A DNA stretch of 64,000 nucleotides, from contig CP070695.1 in NCBI GenBank assembly GCA_020353515.1, positions 2,642,155 to 2,706,154 of the forward strand, read 5' to 3'. The stretch comes from Candidatus Heimdallarchaeota archaeon. GTDB lineage: Archaea > Asgardarchaeota > Heimdallarchaeia > Hodarchaeales > Hodarchaeaceae. Positions 1,660-57,254 of this stretch are shown here, one piece after another. The notes under the pieces are model-generated. The model searched no databases, was not told the origin of the DNA, and saw only the letters and a program-made list of their open reading frames with translations. Both the position numbers and the translations under genes were made by a program. Within the stretch, counting starts at the first letter, position 1. Each line of letters begins with the position of its first letter.

Positions 1660-2577
1660 TTGAAAAATCCTACCACAATGTTATGGATGATTTTTGCAAG
1701 TCTATCGGCTATTTTTGAGTCCTTTCGGTACATTCTGCTTAAAAAGAGTGTCATTACTAATATACATCAATTTACCTGTCATATGTATTTTTTGTCTGGT
1801 ACTTTGATGTTATTTTTCAGCTGGTTAATTGGTTTTCCTAGTTTGAATTCATACTTCTGGATGACTTTTATTATTGTACTTCTTCTTAATACTCTAGCTG
1901 TTCCCATGTATTTGAAGGCTATTCAGCTCTCAGAAGTTTCTCTTGTCGTACCATTATTCTCATTTGGGGCTATATTCTCTATCTTCTTAAGTTTTTTATT
2001 GATACAAGAGATACCTTCCTTGATTGGGATGATAGGAGTATTATTGATCTGTTTAGGTTCTTACGTTCTGAACTCGCCCTCAGGAAAAAACTCGTGGTTA
2101 GAACCCTTAAGGCAACTTTTGGTATCAAAAACAAATATACTTATGTTGATAAGTGTGTTGCTAACTAGTATAGTAACAATTTACTCAAAGGTATTAGTTC
2201 AACAATCAGACGTCATATTTGGTACCGCTTTAGTTTATCTTGGTTTAGGCTTATTTTTTTATTCATTTGGTTTCAGGAACTCATCCCATAGAGGCTATTT
2301 ATTTGATAATAGAGAAGAACTAATCCTAGAAGAAAATATTCCTAAGAAAACCTTTCAGGTGATTTTTTTTCTAAGTGTTTTACTTGTTTTGAGTGTGATT
2401 ACTAGGAATCTTGCTTTAATCTTGCAAAAGGTATCTTATGTGATGGCATTCCGATCAATTAGTATTATTTTTTCAATATTGCTTGGAGTAATATTGCTAA
2501 AAGAAGTTAAAACCCAAGGAAAGGGCTTTGCAATACCAATAATGGGACTAGGTTTAGTTCTAGTAGCCTTTGTGTAA
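1660..2577 (+). CDS. EamA/DMT family transporter
   Basis: About 10 hydrophobic segments in two repeats; YLKAIQLSEVSLVVPL and FRSISIIFSILLGVILLKE motifs. Confidence 0.85.
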   Translation: MKNPTTMLWMIFASLSAIFESFRYILLKKSVITNIHQFTCHMYFLSGTLMLFFSWLIGFPSLNSYFWMTFIIVLLLNTLAVPMYLKAIQLSEVSLVVPLFSFGAIFSIFLSFLLIQEIPSLIGMIGVLLICLGSYVLNSPSGKNSWLEPLRQLLVSKTNILMLISVLLTSIVTIYSKVLVQQSDVIFGTALVYLGLGLFFYSFGFRNSSHRGYLFDNREELILEENIPKKTFQVIFFLSVLLVLSVITRNLALILQKVSYVMAFRSISIIFSILLGVILLKEVKTQGKGFAIPIMGLGLVLVAFV

Positions 2578-2639
2578 AAAGATATGATAATCTAGTCATT
2601 CTAAAAATGTTAATATGTAACTTATTTTCTTGATTTTTA

Positions 2640-3143
2640 TTATTCTTCTTTGTCAATAAAGTGTTCAGAACGAACAATAATACTCATGATATATTTTTCT
2701 GCTTCTAGTGTTAATCTAGCTTTTATTATGGGATACTTTAAGAATTCTTTCTGTGAGGTATCAATCACTAATTTAGATTTAATCCGCTTATTAATTGTTG
2801 CAATTGAAACAACTACCTCCTCATTTGATGATGATGAAATGCTTAACAATCTATTATCTAAATCAATACTCAACCTTTTGAACACATGCAATTTTTTCCT
2901 ATTTTTCTTGTATGTGAGAACTACTTTATCTCTAGCTCTTACTACAAAGTTTGCTGGAATATCATATTTTATTCTAACCTCTTTATAGGTTAAATGATGA
3001 AGTGCAACTGAATTAAAACACCCTTCATCATATGCAATAGTGCTAATATAGTTACAGACCTCTCTATAGATTCTTATTGTATTTTTCAACTTTGAAGAAT
3101 CTTCGACAGTAGGCTCCAGTATACCTAGGATGGTAAAATTCAT
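2640..3143 (-). CDS. TnpB (IS200/IS605, IS1341-like) N-terminal-domain-only protein lacking RuvC
   Basis: LEPTVED...LKNTIRIYREVCNYISTIA...LHHLTYKEVRIKYDIPANFVVRA...DNRLL...VSIATINKRIK...ARL...KYIMSIIV follows the TnpB WED/REC N-half. It stops before the RuvC-I GVDLG motif. Confidence 0.7.
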   Translation of the reverse strand: MNFTILGILEPTVEDSSKLKNTIRIYREVCNYISTIAYDEGCFNSVALHHLTYKEVRIKYDIPANFVVRARDKVVLTYKKNRKKLHVFKRLSIDLDNRLLSISSSSNEEVVVSIATINKRIKSKLVIDTSQKEFLKYPIIKARLTLEAEKYIMSIIVRSEHFIDKEE

Positions 3144-3282
3144 TCTTCATCAAACAACTTTCAGATTAAATGATCCAAGTAAATGTGTGGATCAATCATA
3201 TTTTTAGTAAGTTCAATCCTTAGTGATAATAAGATTTCCATATTGATCTGAATCCTGAGATTGACGAAACATTATTTAGAAA

Positions 3283-5007
3283 TTACTTGAGGGGTAACAT
3301 TGCTGATCTTCTTGAGAATTGTTTAGCTCCATAATTTTCTAGCTGTTTTTCTAAAAGTGGGTAACCATTGTCTTCTAAAATTCTATTTAAACGATCTAAT
3401 TCAGATAATATAGAAAATAAATTTGGATCAATAGCTAAACATCTTCCGTCAACAATGGCAGTTTGGATCTCTCCACGTGCTATATCAGATCCCTTCAAAT
3501 GTGGTGCATCAAAAATTCCTAACTTAACTGCTTTTGTTAATGTTAATGGATCAATAAATGGATCTTTCACAGATTCTCCTGAGATTTTTTGAATTGCTTG
3601 AAGAATCAGATAACTGTCAGAAATAAGCTTTAATTTATAAGCCTCAAGCTTTCGATCTAAGTTGATTGAAGGTAATCCCCTTATAGAATTTGAAATCACT
3701 TTATGAGCTATTTTGGCACTTTCTATCACGTCTTCAGATGTTGCTGCATGATCAGCCTCACAATAACTGACCACATGGACAATATGTGGTTTAATAAACA
3801 TAGCCATTTGAATAGAAGATGCCAATTGCCCTTTTGCGAGATGAGGATCCTCGGGAAAACTCATGAGTCCAGTACGAACCTGACGATATGTAGTAAAGGT
3901 TTCAGAATGTAAACTTTCAATTAATTCCGTCTTAGCTAGCATTTTTGCTAAGTCATATCTAGGAGCTAGACCAATAGGAGTATTAAACATCATTTGAGAA
4001 ATATAATTATGCACTCCAGCCTTTTTTGAATTGTATGCACCTAAGAAGGCAGCTGCGACCGCTATAGCATCTGGAGCTGAACGAAGACTCCAATGATGCG
4101 CCTCATTTGCTTCAAATGGTATGTTATGTTCACCATGCCAAGTCATATTAGCAATATTCTCTTTAATTGCTTCCTGTAATACTCTATCACTTCTACCATC
4201 CAATTCAGAGTACCAGAAAAGAGGAGTAGCCCCCCAAGCATTATCAATAGTATTTCTAAGCATTCTTGATATTTTTATTAAATTTCTTGTACCTGAATAA
4301 CAACGTAATAAAGGATAATTTCCACGTCGAGAAACCTTATAAAAACTAATTAGATCTTCTTCCGAACGAATTGGAACTCCACCTGCTCCCTGTTCTGACT
4401 TTTTCATCTTGATAGGATTGAAAAAGTGTTCTTGAAAATTTTGATCTGGCCCTATTGAGATTATATCAATGATTTTTGCTGCTGCTACAGTTTTGATGCC
4501 TTTCTGGGTCTCTTCAACAGAAGGAACCCCATAATGGGCACGTAATAAGGGATAAGGATAATAAAATTCTATTCGGCCGATTAAACTCGTGGGAAAAGAA
4601 TTCTTTTCCTTTGAGGAGGAGAGTGAATCTCTCAAATATTCAATAACGTCCTTTTCTGTTGTGTTTCCACTAAAAAGACGATCAAATATTCCCAAGCGTC
4701 CAATTGCATTACATACAGGACTAGTACCCCCGAAGATCCACTTTTTCTTTCTTATCTTAGGGGTCATTCTGTTATTAAGTTCCTTCACAAGCTCAACACA
4801 GGCTTCTGGGGTTAAACGATAACTTAAAGCAATGATATCAGGATCCAATTTTTTGATTTCTGCAATAATATCTTCAATTGTGTTTGGAGGACGTAAGAAA
4901 GATGTTTTATACCCTTGTTGCTGTGCAATTCCCATGAAATTAAACACACCAGCAACATGAACACAGGAACCTAAAGTAGCACAAAATATGTGATTACTAT
5001 CTGTCAT
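3283..5007 (-). CDS. Cobalamin-binding domain fused to a mutase-like TIM barrel (uncharacterised)
   Basis: N-terminal B12 Rossmann domain (CVHVAG, ALSY, IFGG). The barrel has RAHYG, GGVP and HVVSYCEA segments reminiscent of glutamate and methylmalonyl-CoA mutases. Confidence 0.75.
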   Translation of the reverse strand: MTDSNHIFCATLGSCVHVAGVFNFMGIAQQQGYKTSFLRPPNTIEDIIAEIKKLDPDIIALSYRLTPEACVELVKELNNRMTPKIRKKKWIFGGTSPVCNAIGRLGIFDRLFSGNTTEKDVIEYLRDSLSSSKEKNSFPTSLIGRIEFYYPYPLLRAHYGVPSVEETQKGIKTVAAAKIIDIISIGPDQNFQEHFFNPIKMKKSEQGAGGVPIRSEEDLISFYKVSRRGNYPLLRCYSGTRNLIKISRMLRNTIDNAWGATPLFWYSELDGRSDRVLQEAIKENIANMTWHGEHNIPFEANEAHHWSLRSAPDAIAVAAAFLGAYNSKKAGVHNYISQMMFNTPIGLAPRYDLAKMLAKTELIESLHSETFTTYRQVRTGLMSFPEDPHLAKGQLASSIQMAMFIKPHIVHVVSYCEADHAATSEDVIESAKIAHKVISNSIRGLPSINLDRKLEAYKLKLISDSYLILQAIQKISGESVKDPFIDPLTLTKAVKLGIFDAPHLKGSDIARGEIQTAIVDGRCLAIDPNLFSILSELDRLNRILEDNGYPLLEKQLENYGAKQFSRRSAMLPLK

Positions 5008-6152
5008 TCCTCTAATACACTCTCCTGTTTCTTTATTTCGATATAGAATTCATCACCCAGAGTCATGTATTCTTTCAGTAAGTAAAATGGAATTTTATCA
5101 AGTTCCAGTGACTCAACAGTCCTCCCAAGAGATCTATAATCTTTATTGAACATACAATTGGCTAAATTAATTATTGCATCTATGAAAGGGGTTGGAACTT
5201 CAGCTACCTCTCCAAAACTAGAAAGGGGAATTAATCCAGTTGGAATATCTTCAAAGATATACCGGACATTTAAGGTTGAAGGTGCCATAACATTTTGATA
5301 TTCTTTTGTATTATGAATGGTTTCACATAAACTACCTCCACTACTTCCATAAACAGAATTCAACCATTTTTGTAGAGTAATTGCCTGTACTCCGAACGCG
5401 TCTGCTACAGCAACTCGTTCTTTATCCATTTTTTCTAAGAAAGAAGCAACAGAAGGAGATACTCCATCAATGTAATGTCGGTAGTTAACCTTTGGATCCT
5501 CACATCTAGCAATATTAAGTAATAAAGGGGTAGGGTGAAAAATAGCACCAATGTTATCGAAAGAAGTATTCAAAACAGATTCAGTTTCCCAAAAAGCACC
5601 ATTAAGATCCTTCAAAAACGGGACAACTTCCTCATTTTCACAGGAAGGAAATGCTGAAATTGGGACTCTTCTCTTTATCCCGGAAATTGTTACTTGACCA
5701 GGTTTTGAACATCGAGACACAAATAGAAGAGATTGAGCTTCTACAACATGTGGTTTGAAAGGGCCATTATTGTTCCGAATGGAATTTCTCACTTCAATTG
5801 CGCCTCCAGTTCTCCCTGGATTTAAAACAACGATTTGATTGCCATCTAAATAAGGAGTAATTCTTGCAGCTACATCTTTATGCGCATTAGCGGTCGTTAC
5901 GACCATTATTAACCTACTTTGTTTAATAACCTTGTGAATTGATGAAGAAATAAAATCAACGTCATAATGTCCTTCTAATAGTCCTGAGGAAGTAATACCT
6001 TTATTTTCTTTTATCGATTCAAGGACTGCTCTTGACCGATTCCAAATTTTTACTTTATAACCTTGTGATTTCGCATACGCAGCAAACGCATGTCCTCCAT
6101 TTCCTAACCCGAGAATAGATATAGAATCGTCTTGAATCTTATTATTTTTCAT
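5004..6152 (-). CDS. NAD/NADP-dependent opine (octopine/nopaline) dehydrogenase family
   Basis: GLGNGG, LNPGRTGG, NIGAIFHP and RYIFEDIPTGL motifs; ATGA overlap with the B12 gene. Confidence 0.9.
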   Translation of the reverse strand: MKNNKIQDDSISILGLGNGGHAFAAYAKSQGYKVKIWNRSRAVLESIKENKGITSSGLLEGHYDVDFISSSIHKVIKQSRLIMVVTTANAHKDVAARITPYLDGNQIVVLNPGRTGGAIEVRNSIRNNNGPFKPHVVEAQSLLFVSRCSKPGQVTISGIKRRVPISAFPSCENEEVVPFLKDLNGAFWETESVLNTSFDNIGAIFHPTPLLLNIARCEDPKVNYRHYIDGVSPSVASFLEKMDKERVAVADAFGVQAITLQKWLNSVYGSSGGSLCETIHNTKEYQNVMAPSTLNVRYIFEDIPTGLIPLSSFGEVAEVPTPFIDAIINLANCMFNKDYRSLGRTVESLELDKIPFYLLKEYMTLGDEFYIEIKKQESVLEE

Positions 6153-6739
6153 ATATAATCTTCCTGTTAGTTTTAAATAATTCTCGTCTATTAAATGCTA
6201 TTTTAATGAGTGTTCTCTCATTTATTTGCTGATTATCCTATTAAAAAAAGAAAGTCTAACTAAAATGAGAATTTCTTAGGAAATCAGATCTATTATCTCT
6301 TTTTACTGAATTTATTCATATGAATGAACAAAGAGGAAATTTTAATGTTCTTTACACAAGTAATTCTTACAAAATTTCTTTATTAGCTTTTCGGATGTAT
6401 AAAACGTGATATTTATAAACAATACAACTATAGGCATAACAAATTACTATAAAATACCCATATTCATATATGAATATAGCTTAATTTCGATATTAAACTA
6501 TTACTTATGTTTTTTAGGGATAGTATATTCATAAATGACTTATTTTTTATTGTAAAAAGACCAATTACAGTTATACTCGAATTGATAGACTTCCTTATAC
6601 TCGGAAGAAGTACATTATTGAGGGAAACCATGAATTTAAAATCAGTTAGTCCCCAGTATTGGCTAGGTCCATCAAAAGAGGAGTAAATTTAAATCTCCAA
6701 ACCTTGAAGAAGATTCTAGAAAATTAATTACTATTTCTT

Positions 6740-7273
6740 TTAATACTCATTGGGTATGCGTTCCATTAAACAGTCAAAACCTATTCCTTTCATTTCAGAG
6801 TTCTCTTTAAATCCGAATCGATGATAATAGTTTTTTAATTTTAAGATCTCTTCGTCAGTTGGTTTTTTCTCTGGACTAATGAAGGGCATTGCATGCAGAG
6901 TTAAAGTAATTCCTAATTCATCTGCAATTTCCGTTAATTCTTCGAAGATATAAGTGGACAATCCATTTCCTCGAAATTCTGGTTCAATCCAAAGAGTGCC
7001 TATATAGCATTCATTTTTTTTAGCTTTCCATGCTAGTGAAAAGCTCCCTATCCTAAGAAAATCGTCTTTAATTTCTTCACCAATGTCTATAAAACAATTT
7101 ATTGTCTTTTTTTGGTCTATTACTCTTTTTAACGAGATAGGTTCTCCCATAAATACTTCTTCTAAGCTATTAATGTTGAAATGACAAAACTGACTATTTG
7201 TTTGGAATTCAACCTGGAAATCCCAATAATCAAGGTTTGCACAATCTTGATTAGTTTCGGTCACAGAATACAT
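6740..7273 (-). CDS. GNAT-family acetyltransferase
   Basis: LWIEPEFRGNGLS acetyl-CoA motif and YYHRFGF. Confidence 0.8.
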   Translation of the reverse strand: MYSVTETNQDCANLDYWDFQVEFQTNSQFCHFNINSLEEVFMGEPISLKRVIDQKKTINCFIDIGEEIKDDFLRIGSFSLAWKAKKNECYIGTLWIEPEFRGNGLSTYIFEELTEIADELGITLTLHAMPFISPEKKPTDEEILKLKNYYHRFGFKENSEMKGIGFDCLMERIPNEY

Positions 7274-55460: not shown

Positions 55461-57254
55461 TTGACATCAAAAGTCCAAACAGGTAAAATTGTTAGAATTT
55501 CAGGCCCTGTTGTTGAAATAAGTGGCATGAATCGTGCCCAACTTTATGAAATCGTTAGGGTCGGTGAGGAACAGCTAATCGGAGAGATCATTCGAATCAG
55601 TCAATCTGGAAATCGGCATATCTCAACAGTTCAAGTTTATGAAGAAACTACTGGTTTAAAACCGAGGGAAGAGGCAGTTGCAACAGGAAATCCTCTGAGT
55701 GCAGAACTTGGTCCAGGATTAATCACACGCATCTATGATGGTATCCAACGCCCATTACCAGCCCTTCAATTGGAAGAAGGAGATTTTATTACCCGAGGTC
55801 TAACAGCTGCTCCGTTAGATTTAGATAAAAAATGGTTTTTTAAACCACTTGTGAATACGGGAGATAGAATTAAGGGGGGATCCTATCTTGGAGAAGTAAA
55901 AGAATCTAGAATGGTGGATCATAGAATCATGGTTCCTCCTGGCATCGGTTCTGCAAAGGTAACCTCTATCGCTGATCCTGACGAATACTCAATAACGGAA
56001 ACAATTGCTCAAATCGATGTCGAAGGACAATTTCCATTTGCACTGCCTATAACTATGAGACAAATTTGGCCAGTTAGAAATCCTCGTCCGTTTAAACGAA
56101 AATTAGAAGCAAATATCCCACTAATAACAGGCCAACGCATATTTGATACCTTTTTCCCTATAGCTAAGGGAGGAGTAGCAGCCATTCCTGGAGGATTTGG
56201 TACAGGTAAGACTGTTAGTCAACATCAACTCGCAAAATGGTCTGATGCCACAGTTGTTGTTTATGTTGGATGTGGAGAACGCGGTAACGAAATGGCAGAA
56301 GTTTTGAAAGAATTTCCAGATCTTGAAGATCCACATTCGGGAGAAAAACTAATGCAGCGGACTGTTCTGATCGCTAACACCTCTAATATGCCTGTTGCAG
56401 CACGAGAAGCCTCCATCTACTTAGGAATTACTATAGCTGAATATTATCGTGATATGGGATATGATGTCGCTTTAATGGCAGATTCAACAAGTCGGTGGGC
56501 TGAAGCTCTCCGTGAAATTTCAGGTCGTTTAGAAGAAATGCCTGGAGAAGAGGGTTACCCTGCTTATCTCGCTTCCAGAATAGCAGAATTCTATGAAAGA
56601 GCAGGGAGAATTGAAACACTCTCTGGTCATAAAGCTAGTATATCTGCCATAGGTGCTATTTCTCCAGGAGGAGGAGATTTTTCAGAACCTGTAACTCAAA
56701 ATACATTGAAAACAGTAAGAGTGTTTTGGGCATTAAGTTATCCTTTAGCACGGTCTAGGCATTTTCCTGCAATATCGTGGTTAGAGAGTTATAGTCTATA
56801 TATTGATTCATTGGCAAAATGGTATCATGAAAAAGTTGCACCAGACTTTAATAAGCTTAGAGAAGAAGCAATGGCACTTCTTCAAAAAGAAAAGGAATTA
56901 CAAGAGATAGTACAACTTATAGGACCAGATGCTTTGCCTGAATCAGAAAAAATTATCCTTCAAGCTGCTAAAATGATTAGAGAAGATTTTCTCCAACAAA
57001 ATGCTTATTCAGATGACTCTTATTGCAGTCTGGATAAACAGTTCCAGATGCTCAAAATAATAATGAAATTCTACGAAAAGATGCGAGAAAAACACAGTGC
57101 AGGAGTCCCTCTTGAGAAAATGACTTCTCTTCCCGTTTTGGCGGAAATCGCTAGTTTAAAATGGTCTTTTGATGCAGAATTTGACGCATTATATGAAAAG
57201 TGTTGGGATTTCATTCAGAACAAAATGGAACCGAGTGATTTTGGGATTGCGTGA
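55461..57254 (+). CDS. atpA: A/V-type ATP synthase subunit A
   Basis: ISGPVV, QVYEET.G, PGGFGTGKT, GCGERGNE, ANTSNMPVAAREAS. Confidence 0.98.
   Translation: MTSKVQTGKIVRISGPVVEISGMNRAQLYEIVRVGEEQLIGEIIRISQSGNRHISTVQVYEETTGLKPREEAVATGNPLSAELGPGLITRIYDGIQRPLPALQLEEGDFITRGLTAAPLDLDKKWFFKPLVNTGDRIKGGSYLGEVKESRMVDHRIMVPPGIGSAKVTSIADPDEYSITETIAQIDVEGQFPFALPITMRQIWPVRNPRPFKRKLEANIPLITGQRIFDTFFPIAKGGVAAIPGGFGTGKTVSQHQLAKWSDATVVVYVGCGERGNEMAEVLKEFPDLEDPHSGEKLMQRTVLIANTSNMPVAAREASIYLGITIAEYYRDMGYDVALMADSTSRWAEALREISGRLEEMPGEEGYPAYLASRIAEFYERAGRIETLSGHKASISAIGAISPGGGDFSEPVTQNTLKTVRVFWALSYPLARSRHFPAISWLESYSLYIDSLAKWYHEKVAPDFNKLREEAMALLQKEKELQEIVQLIGPDALPESEKIILQAAKMIREDFLQQNAYSDDSYCSLDKQFQMLKIIMKFYEKMREKHSAGVPLEKMTSLPVLAEIASLKWSFDAEFDALYEKCWDFIQNKMEPSDFGIA

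What the first reader, a model, noticed from the sequence alone, without database searches (positions are those of the whole stretch)
2640..3143. Nuclease-less TnpB half-protein in a metabolic cluster, possibly domesticated
Seen: an uninterrupted 167-aa ORF resembling the TnpB WED/REC N-half, with no RuvC or zinc finger, no tnpA, and only 62 bp before the convergent EamA stop. It is co-oriented just downstream of the opine-DH/B12 pair. Established: TnpB has repeatedly been exapted (Cas12, Fanzor, nuclease-dead TldR repressors), but those keep a RuvC fold. Inference: this may be a minimal nucleic-acid-binding regulator derived from TnpB. A simple IS remnant is the alternative.
Basis: partly seen in the sequence, partly recalled or inferred. 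Interest (0 to 1): 0.7.

Follow-up and report, generated by a model that had tools for sequence, protein, structure and literature searches.

The report
Conserved RuvC-less TnpB recognition lobe gene
In one clade of Asgard archaea, a transposon nuclease gene (tnpB) lost its whole cutting half, and the remaining 167-residue nucleic-acid-recognition half has been kept as a fixed, selected, single-copy chromosomal gene, a more radical domestication than those described for this family.

Summary
Window 2640-3143 (-) is an intact 167-aa ORF. It folds with high confidence (pLDDT 95) as the WED+REC recognition lobe of TnpB/Cas12f. It stops 5-8 residues before the RuvC-I motif of its full-length relatives.

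It is not a decaying IS remnant:
- It is single-copy in its genome.
- Same-length (162-169 aa) orthologues at 51-90% identity form one clade nested among full-length TnpBs.
- They sit at one chromosomal locus in seven of the eight genomes of one species clade.
- Pairwise dN/dS is 0.10-0.28, like the neighbouring enzyme genes.
- 28 of the 30 positions conserved in full-length relatives are retained.

No RuvC/zinc-ribbon remnant, tnpA or conserved downstream RNA region was found.

The proposed tie to the opine-DH/B12 pair is not conserved. In other genomes the gene follows hydantoinase A or a GNAT gene.

A 34-nt element lies 62 nt upstream of the start codon here and is conserved in part of the clade. 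It is probably the gene's own promoter or operator.

Function is inferred only. The most likely one is a non-catalytic nucleic-acid binder that uses the retained TAM-duplex cleft.

The scan found this gene family before, on another genome (e1-5454515), and reached the same conclusion. I re-tested that conclusion here.

The parts
2640..3143 (-). CDS of the 167-aa RuvC-less TnpB recognition lobe. WED strand beta1 is residues 2-10, the REC three-helix bundle is 13-80, and the WED barrel is 92-158. Residues 159-167 form a variable tail. pI 9.4, net charge about +8.
3206..3239 (-). Conserved 34-nt upstream element, GGAAATCTTATTATCACTAAGGATTGAACTTACT. It lies 62 nt before the ATG and is unique in the genome. 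It contains a BRE/TATA-like GGAAAT-C-TTATTAT and an imperfect 6-bp dyad (AATCTT ... AAGGATT). It is a candidate core promoter and/or operator.
   Evidence: The element recurs with 0-3 mismatches in G019, G011 and G018/L004, and with 7 mismatches in G015/L002, while the flanking intergenic DNA is unalignable. It is unique in the own genome at up to 3 mismatches. The weak hairpin shows one compensatory change. It was not found at up to 8 mismatches in G004, G020, L005 or L008.
3144..3282 (-). Intergenic region between the B12 gene's stop codon and the start codon, holding the putative promoter and a 5' leader of about 60 nt. GATGAAGA just before the ATG is conserved.
2578..2639 (.). 62-bp spacer to the stop codon of the convergent EamA gene. 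It is too short for, and not conserved as, a canonical 3' omega-RNA scaffold.
3283..6152 (-). Context only: the opine-dehydrogenase (5004-6152) and B12-binding (3283-5007) gene pair upstream. It is a variable neighbour, not a conserved partner.

Best explanation
SHOWN. A tnpB gene of a subfamily whose closest full-length members lie on virus- or plasmid-like contigs was fixed in the chromosome of the ancestor of one Asgard species clade. It lost everything from the WED/RuvC linker onward: RuvC, the TNB zinc ribbon, and the 3' region where an omega-RNA is normally encoded. What remains is the complete recognition lobe (WED OB-barrel plus REC helical bundle). It is immobile, single-copy, vertically inherited and under purifying selection, and it keeps nearly all residues that full-length relatives conserve.

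INFERRED. It acts as a small, basic, non-catalytic nucleic-acid-binding protein. In ISDra2 TnpB the WED+REC cleft alone binds and reads the TAM duplex, while the RNA scaffold and the heteroduplex channel need RuvC as well (PMC10097598). The activity most likely to survive is therefore guide-independent recognition of a short dsDNA motif, giving a regulatory or occluding role. It may act on its own conserved promoter-proximal element. The ancestral TAM would have lain just 5' of the element's left end, which is upstream of this gene.
For: Fold and homology.

Clean domain-boundary truncation, with no C-half remnant in 11 loci or elsewhere in the genome.

Purifying selection: dN/dS is 0.10-0.28 over the 35 of 36 pairs that could be computed, with dS from 0.2 to more than 2. 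On the same genome pairs the B12 gene gives 0.13-0.16, opine-DH 0.10-0.12, IDI2 0.07-0.11 and GNAT 0.25.

Single origin: the 13 short forms are one clade (SH-aLRT 96) nested among full-length TnpBs.

Phyletic pattern: on an SRP54 tree the 7 carriers plus G010 form one clade (SH-aLRT 96). The other 12 genomes on that tree from the genus and the 2 from the other family have no orthologue.

Copy number: one copy per genome.

Residue retention: 28 of 30 positions conserved in full-length relatives are kept at 90% or more, including the family-invariant Y53 and R120. Three new conserved basic residues appear (R27, R71, K119).

No canonical guide: the downstream spacers are unalignable and range from 14 to about 490 bp. 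No peak of synonymous-site conservation lies in the CDS.

Own regulatory element: the conserved 34-nt upstream element persists when the upstream gene differs.

Domain roles in TnpB: PMC10097598, read.
Against: The upstream element is conserved in only part of the clade, so it cannot be a universal target.

The gene is absent from G010, a member of the carrier clade whose GNAT-L7Ae junction is empty. It is therefore dispensable.

The equivalence of Y53 and R120 to TAM-contacting residues of ISDra2 was not tested by a residue-level structural alignment.

The ESM Atlas holds bacterial and viral clusters of 176-190-aa proteins with the same fold. An N-half-sized ORF is therefore not rare in itself, and many of these are probably fragments.
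Confidence: 0.55

Rival explanations
1. It is an RNA-guided DNA-binding repressor in the manner of TldR. It uses a guide RNA encoded in trans or in an unrecognised position, and the WED+REC lobe alone suffices to hold a reduced scaffold.
For: TnpB has repeatedly become RNA-guided transcription factors, some with C-terminal truncations (10.1101/2023.11.30.569447; PMC10691335). The WED strands that contact stem 4 and the pseudoknot are part of the retained lobe. Family-conserved residues are kept.
Against: Known TldRs keep the RuvC fold, and its alpha1/alpha2 helices hold the gRNA.

In TnpB most scaffold contacts and half of the heteroduplex channel come from RuvC.

There is no conserved non-coding DNA downstream, and the spacer is only 14-62 bp in two loci.

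The leader has no consensus structure (-1.1 kcal/mol).

There is no Rfam hit above threshold.

No match to the omega-RNA region of the closest full-length relative was found in the genome; the best hit lies inside a CDS.

The two positions relaxed in the short clade are in N-terminal strand beta1. In ISDra2 this is the strand that carries N4, which stacks on the first guide:target base pair. That equivalence is inferred, not tested.
Confidence: 0.15
2. It is a dominant-negative decoy against related TnpB-bearing viruses or mobile elements. The host-encoded lobe competes for their TAM sites or omega-RNA and so blocks their nuclease, as truncated transposase derivatives inhibit their parent elements.
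For: The closest full-length relatives (P0018/P0019, 48-50% identity) sit on a contig of small unannotated genes with an MCM-like gene, which looks virus- or plasmid-like. The ancestral interaction surfaces are retained. The gene is clade-restricted and dispensable. It lies in a variable island between GNAT and L7Ae.
Against: The host range of the L007 element is unknown. The padloc defence library was not searched. Steady dN/dS of about 0.2 with no sign of diversifying selection is not what arms-race genes usually show. The own genome has only one, unrelated, full-length TnpB.
Confidence: 0.15
3. It is the recognition subunit of a split effector that works with a catalytic partner encoded elsewhere.
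For: A related 170-193-aa WED+REC-only protein (P0026, P0183) is directly followed by, and may be translationally coupled to, a zinc-finger + HNH nuclease gene on two virus-like contigs. It may be sister to the short clade (SH-aLRT 89, long branch).
Against: The own genome has no homologue of that HNH partner (best E 0.03). It has no stand-alone RuvC/TNB half either: the only sub-threshold TNB hit is a NUDIX protein. No gene is a conserved neighbour across the orthologous loci.
Confidence: 0.07
4. It is a functionless IS remnant that merely has not yet decayed.
For: It has no nuclease. It is more AT-rich than its surroundings (GC 29.8% against 36% for the window). It is missing from one member of the clade (G010). 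N-half-sized fragments are common in databases. An example is the 134-aa Thermococcus cluster P0020, whose tail diverges from the family after about residue 105.
Against: The frame is intact and the length is 162-169 aa in 9 distinct loci, even though synonymous divergence is saturated (dS above 1.5 at the deepest splits) and dN/dS is 0.10-0.28. The position is fixed, the copy is single, and family signature residues are retained.
Confidence: 0.03

Closest known systems
TnpB of IS200/IS605/IS607-type elements (e.g. ISDra2 TnpB, PDB 8EXA/8H1J). The closest sequence relative is P0018, 389 aa.
   Same: The WED+REC recognition lobe is homologous: 50% identity to P0018 over residues 4-136, and Foldseek E 3e-5 to 8exa. 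It has the same secondary-structure order and keeps the family-conserved residues.
   Different: It has no RuvC, no TNB zinc ribbon, no C-terminal domain, no 3' omega-RNA region, no tnpA and no element ends. It is single-copy, immobile and vertically inherited.
TldR (TnpB-like nuclease-dead repressors; 10.1101/2023.11.30.569447; 10.64898/2026.09.22.753285)
   Same: It is an immobilised, nuclease-less descendant of TnpB that is kept under selection in host chromosomes and lacks tnpA and LE/RE ends.
   Different: TldRs retain a degenerate RuvC domain that still holds the gRNA, and they have an adjacent gRNA gene. They are bacterial or phage-borne and have clade-specific partner genes. Here the whole NUC lobe is gone, no adjacent RNA is conserved, the host is an Asgard archaeon, and no partner gene is conserved.
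Cas12f (e.g. AsCas12f, PDB 8J3R/8DZJ/7WJU)
   Same: These are the best structural matches (TM by query 0.76-0.81). The second protomer of the Cas12f dimer is often resolved only as its WED/REC part (about 200 residues; 8dzj_B, 7wju_B).
   Different: Sequence identity is 11-13%. The Cas12f zinc-finger insert is absent. No repeat array lies within the 951 bp around the gene that was scanned.
Virus-borne WED+REC-only protein coupled to a ZnF-HNH nuclease (P0026 on L046, P0183 on L055). This is an uncharacterised pair found here.
   Same: It is also a RuvC-less recognition lobe of 170-193 aa ending at the same domain boundary. It is 37% identical to the query and a possible sister lineage.
   Different: It sits on mobile or viral contigs, immediately followed by an HNH nuclease gene. 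The Asgard chromosomal gene has no such partner.

Membership tests
TnpB (IS200/IS605/IS607 OrfB) | WED + REC recognition lobe homologous to the family | tested here: met
   P0018 is 50% identical (E 7e-43). The family profile hits Cas12f at E 4e-6. Foldseek matches Cas12f and TnpB.
TnpB (IS200/IS605/IS607 OrfB) | RuvC nuclease domain with the D-E-D triad | tested here: not met
   The protein ends 5-8 residues before the GVDxG RuvC-I motif. tblastn finds no C-half remnant in 11 loci. There is no Pfam OrfB_IS605 hit.
TnpB (IS200/IS605/IS607 OrfB) | TNB zinc-ribbon domain | tested here: not met
   There is no PF07282 hit in the protein. The only genomic PF07282 hits are an unrelated 406-aa TnpB and a NUDIX protein, both far away.
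TnpB (IS200/IS605/IS607 OrfB) | omega-RNA encoded over the 3' end of the gene and downstream | tested here: not met
   The downstream spacer is 62 bp here and 14 bp in L008. Downstream DNA does not align among 9 loci. There is no Rfam hit above threshold and no synonymous-site conservation peak.
TnpB (IS200/IS605/IS607 OrfB) | Mobile-element context (tnpA, LE/RE ends, multiple copies) | tested here: not met
   One copy per genome. No tnpA-sized ORF within 14 kb. Fixed locus.
TldR (TnpB-like nuclease-dead repressor) | Retained but inactivated RuvC fold that holds the gRNA scaffold | tested here: not met
   The entire NUC lobe is absent. For TldR architecture.
TldR (TnpB-like nuclease-dead repressor) | Guide RNA gene adjacent to the protein gene | tested here: not met
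   No conserved non-coding region lies downstream, and the upstream leader has no consensus structure.
TldR (TnpB-like nuclease-dead repressor) | Immobilised, with a conserved association to host genes | tested here: inconclusive
   The gene is immobile and locus-fixed. The immediate neighbours vary: B12, hydantoinase A or GNAT upstream; EamA, histone, S26e or other genes downstream.
TldR (TnpB-like nuclease-dead repressor) | RNA-guided DNA binding and transcriptional repression | not testable with these tools
   This needs RIP-seq, ChIP-seq and reporter assays.

The most novel reading that the evidence does not exclude
The TnpB recognition lobe is a self-sufficient functional module. In Asgard chromosomes it acts alone as a DNA-motif-reading transcription factor or anti-TnpB decoy. 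In related viruses the same RuvC-less lobe is paired with an HNH nuclease. Together these would reveal a 'recognition lobe plus exchangeable effector' architecture in the TnpB/Cas12 superfamily that has not been described.
Probability: 0.25. Interest if true: 0.8.

Novelty: new variant of a known kind. Interest (0 to 1): 0.62.

Why it matters
All described exaptations of TnpB (Cas12 effectors, Fanzor, TldR, sigma-factor-associated forms) keep the bilobed REC+NUC body. A lineage that has kept only the REC lobe under selection through saturating synonymous divergence would show that this lobe has a useful activity of its own. It would be about 170 residues of potentially sequence-reading DNA/RNA-binding scaffold. 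It would also extend TnpB domestication to Asgard archaea. It gives a concrete, small protein on which to test whether TAM reading can be separated from RNA guidance. Together with the virus-borne lobe+HNH pairs, it allows a test of whether the lobe can serve other effectors. The three literature searches run here found no paper describing such a form. That is weak evidence of absence.

Tried and rejected
- Homodimer prediction (complex prediction, two copies with alignment A1): no verdict in either direction, not used as evidence.
- A trans-encoded omega-RNA, sought with the 3'/downstream DNA of the closest full-length TnpB: the best hit (E 0.004) lies inside a 450-aa CDS and is an AT-rich chance match.
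- A stand-alone RuvC/TNB half in the own genome: the sub-threshold PF07282 hit is a NUDIX hydrolase with a zinc ribbon.
- A homologue of the HNH partner of P0026 in the own genome: none.
- An Rfam scan of 2300-3600 gave only snoZ266 at E 0.52 and 21.6 bits against a 43-bit threshold. I treat it as chance.
- A full-length TnpB or a remnant at the syntenic site in genomes without the gene: none found downstream of B12 or GNAT in 12 loci.
- A histone downstream of the gene in this window, as in G011, G004 and L005: ORFs 540-809 and 1563-1754 have no Pfam hit.
- AtpA as a species marker was dropped because of inteins and paralogues. SRP54 was used instead.
- Pfam DUF5769 (E 0.015) and PHROG 11141 (E 0.033) were ignored as sub-threshold.

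Full report
**1. What is there.** Window 2640-3143 (minus strand) is an uninterrupted ATG-initiated ORF of 167 codons.
- Downstream, 62 bp separate its stop codon from the stop of a convergent EamA-family transporter gene (1660-2577 +).
- Upstream on the same strand lie a 574-aa B12-binding-domain protein (3283-5007) and an opine dehydrogenase (5004-6152).
- Further along are a GNAT gene, type-2 IPP isomerase, UbiX, AcnX-type phosphomevalonate dehydratase subunits, a UbiD-like gene and mevalonate kinase.
- On the other side is ribosomal protein L7Ae.
- The window lies in a closed 4.94-Mb genome. Source names of the orthologues place it among Asgard archaea ('Promethearchaeota/Hodarchaeota').

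**2. It is a TnpB recognition lobe and nothing else.** Curated libraries barely see it. The only hits are NCBIfam TIGR01765 'transposase N-terminal domain' at E 1.3e-4, below the cut-off, and nothing significant in Pfam. Stronger evidence comes from other searches:
- An all-against-library HMMER search gave 484 hits at E up to 0.001. Many are full-length 360-400-aa proteins aligned in register from residue 1.
- The nearest, P0018 (389 aa; Pfam OrfB_IS605 plus the Cas12f1-like TNB domain), is 50% identical over residues 4-136.
- A profile of the family hits the Cas12f structure 9nzq at E 4e-6.
- The AlphaFold model is very confident (pLDDT 95.1, pTM 0.88). Its order of elements is beta1, three long helices, then a six-stranded barrel with one helix.
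- Foldseek ranks AsCas12f (TM by query 0.80), other Cas12f, Cas12k, ISFba1 TnpB and ISDra2 TnpB (8exa, E 3e-5) on top.

In ISDra2 TnpB the WED domain is residues 1-12 and 117-176, REC is 13-116, and RuvC begins at 185 (PMC10097598). The 167-aa protein therefore equals the whole REC lobe.

In an alignment with full-length relatives it ends 5-8 residues before their GVDxG RuvC-I motif (P0018 D175).

tblastn with the C-halves of three relatives gave only short hits of E 1.0 or weaker, none adjoining the gene, in 11 orthologous loci. The own genome has no stand-alone RuvC/TNB half. Its only PF07282 hits are an unrelated 406-aa TnpB 1.5 Mb away and a NUDIX protein.

**3. It is a selected gene, not a remnant.** A word-indexed search found 16 proteins, two of them truncated gene calls (144 and 149 aa) and 14 of 165-168 aa at 53-90% identity. 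At the 50% clustering level they are a single cluster.

I recovered DNA for nine distinct orthologues. All have open frames of 162-169 codons. The copy in G019 merely stops five codons early in the variable tail.

Selection:
- Pairwise Nei-Gojobori dN/dS is 0.10-0.28 over the 35 of 36 pairs that could be computed, with dS running from 0.23 to saturation.
- On the same genome pairs the neighbouring genes give 0.13-0.16 (B12), 0.10-0.12 (opine-DH), 0.07-0.11 (IDI2) and 0.25 (GNAT).

Origin and inheritance:
- On a tree of N-halves the 13 short forms are one clade (SH-aLRT 96) nested among full-length TnpBs. This points to one truncation event.
- Each carrier genome has one copy. Other matches in those genomes are distant (25-33%) full-length TnpBs.
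- In the 24 species genomes of the GTDB order, 7 carry the gene.
- On an SRP54 tree these 7 plus G010 form one clade (SH-aLRT 96). All other genomes lack an orthologue.
- G010 is a 71%-complete assembly. It has GNAT directly followed by L7Ae, which is an empty site.
- The simplest history is one gain, vertical descent and one loss.

**4. Synteny, and the 'metabolic cluster'.** The gene always lies in the same chromosomal neighbourhood, between the mevalonate-pathway genes and a ribosomal-protein cluster. Its immediate neighbours vary.
- Upstream: the B12 protein in the window, G019, G018/L004, G015/L002 and G020. Hydantoinase A in G011 and the L005/L006 contigs, where only a 170-aa stub of the opine-DH gene remains. 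GNAT in G004.
- Downstream: EamA here. Histone genes in G011, G004 and L005. S26e in L004. Other genes in L002 and L008.
- The opine-DH/B12 pair also exists in seven genomes without the short gene.

The gene is therefore the constant and the metabolic pair is a variable neighbour. I see no support for a specific functional link.

**5. Non-coding features.**
- Downstream DNA does not align among the loci. The spacer to the next gene is 14 bp (L008), 62 bp (window), 129 bp (L004), about 300 bp (L002) and about 490 bp (L005).
- No synonymous-site conservation peak suggests an RNA embedded in the CDS.
- Rfam gives nothing above threshold.
- The canonical position of an omega-RNA or TldR gRNA is therefore empty.

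Upstream there is a 34-nt element (window 3206-3239, minus strand).
- It recurs with 0-3 mismatches in G019, G011 and G018, and with 7 in G015, although the DNA around it is unalignable and the upstream gene differs in G011.
- It is unique in the genome.
- It contains a BRE/TATA-like GGAAAT-C-TTATTAT. A transcription start 24-27 nt after the TATA-like box would fall at its 3' end, leaving a leader of about 60 nt. That is my reading, not a tool result.
- It also contains an imperfect 6-bp dyad with one compensatory change.
- It is not detectable in G004, G020, L005 or L008.

I read it as the gene's own core promoter, perhaps with an overlapping operator.

**6. How it most likely works.**

Shown: it is a basic protein (pI 9.4, net charge +8) with the complete TnpB REC lobe.
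- 28 of the 30 positions that full-length relatives conserve are retained at 90% or more. These include the only two columns invariant in the whole 47-sequence alignment, Y53 and R120.
- Three basic residues are newly fixed: N>R27, I>R71 and G>K119.
- Only two positions are relaxed, both in strand beta1.

Established for ISDra2 TnpB (PMC10097598):
- The TAM duplex is bound in the cleft formed by WED and REC alone.
- The omega-RNA scaffold needs WED plus RuvC.
- The heteroduplex channel needs REC plus RuvC.
- N4 in beta1 stacks on the first guide:target pair.

Inference: the activity that can survive loss of the NUC lobe intact is TAM-type reading of a short dsDNA motif. RNA-guided strand invasion is unlikely.

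I therefore favour a guide-independent DNA-binding (regulatory or occluding) protein (confidence 0.55 for 'non-catalytic nucleic-acid binder of this kind'). In an IS605-type insertion the TAM lies immediately 5' of the left end, which is upstream of tnpB. The lobe would thus have had a potential site in its own promoter region from the start. This last point is speculation.

The rivals are:
- an RNA-guided repressor with a trans guide (0.15);
- a dominant-negative decoy against related TnpB-bearing viruses (0.15);
- a subunit of a split effector (0.07);
- a functionless remnant (0.03).

**7. Comparison with known systems.** By descent it is a TnpB. By membership it fails four of the five defining features: RuvC, TNB, omega-RNA and mobile context.

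TldRs are the nearest concept. They retain a degenerate RuvC domain whose helices hold the gRNA, and they have an adjacent gRNA gene. Both features were tested here and are not met.

Three full-text searches found no paper that reports a conserved stand-alone REC lobe. The TnpB census papers describe catalytic inactivation and partial C-terminal truncation only.

One caveat on rarity. A shape search of the ESM Atlas returns clusters of 176-190-aa proteins with the same fold in bacteria and viruses (64-226 members, TM by match 0.78-0.83). Some are labelled 'transposase (fragment)'. I could not test whether any of them is a selected gene.

**8. Earlier notes of this scan.** The same gene family was reported on another genome (e1-5454515) with the same conclusion. 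I did not rely on it. Fold, truncation point, dN/dS, monophyly, synteny and phyletic pattern were all re-derived here.

**9. Verdict.** The TnpB origin and the domestication are strongly supported. The metabolic link is not supported. The biochemical function is open. I class it as a new variant of a known kind (TnpB exaptation), with interest 0.62.

Noticed in passing
L046:8001-9319 and L055:6001-7393: On two related virus- or plasmid-like metagenomic contigs (19 and 61 kb, mostly small unannotated genes), a RuvC-less WED+REC-only protein is immediately followed by a 267-269-aa protein with zinc fingers and a bona fide HNH nuclease domain (Pfam HNH E 3e-10). The lobe proteins are P0026 (170 aa) and P0183 (193 aa), 82% identical to each other and 37% to the query. 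The two genes overlap by 4 bp on L046 and are 7 bp apart on L055. This may be a recognition lobe paired with a different nuclease. On the tree it is a possible sister of the Asgard short clade (SH-aLRT 89, long branch).
   Followed up: partly
window 3160-3252 (+): A sub-threshold Rfam match to the C/D-box snoRNA family snoZ266 (21.6 bits against a 43-bit threshold, E 0.52) lies antisense to the leader and overlaps the conserved 34-nt element. It is probably chance, but the host is an archaeon with C/D sRNAs, and L7Ae is encoded 3 kb away.
   Followed up: no
window 3283-7273 and loci L005, L038, L040, L044, L045: The segment between the GNAT gene and the L7Ae/S26e ribosomal-protein genes is a variable island. 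Four arrangements occur: the opine-DH+B12 pair (window, G019, G018, G015, G020); the pair plus hydantoinase B-remnant/A (G011); an opine-DH stub plus hydantoinase B/A (L005); or nothing (G010 has GNAT directly before L7Ae, and G013 has GNAT-FKBP-S26e).
   Followed up: partly
L009:1405-2625 (-) = G000:C1 about 4183195-4184415: The genome's only full-length TnpB is a 406-aa ORF with a TNB domain (PF07282 E 4e-11). It is too distant from the short protein for a tblastn search to link them.
   Followed up: no
G010:C1:951671-955075 and G011:C24:16710-20117 (loci L073/L083, L074/L082): The A-type ATPase subunit A gene of two relatives matches the window's AtpA (55461-57254) in two pieces inside one open frame of about 1145 aa. 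This fits an intein that the window's copy lacks. Several other genomes instead show a 50%-identical paralogue.
   Followed up: no
P0020 cluster (17 members, all 134 aa except one 39-aa fragment, Thermococcus/Thermococci): This TnpB N-terminal ORF follows the family to about residue 105 and then diverges. That is the look of an ordinary frameshifted IS remnant, and it is a useful contrast to the intact Asgard lobe.
   Followed up: no
G020 (locus L016) compared with G000: G020 is as close to G000 as G019 by SRP54 (93%). Its short protein (77%) and B12 protein (83%) are clearly more diverged than G019's (88-90% and 89%). This suggests recombination at this locus or a mixed-strain bin (contamination 8%).
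   Followed up: no
window 2650-2988 (+): A 112-aa antisense ORF lies wholly inside the short gene. It is low-complexity and probably spurious.
   Followed up: no
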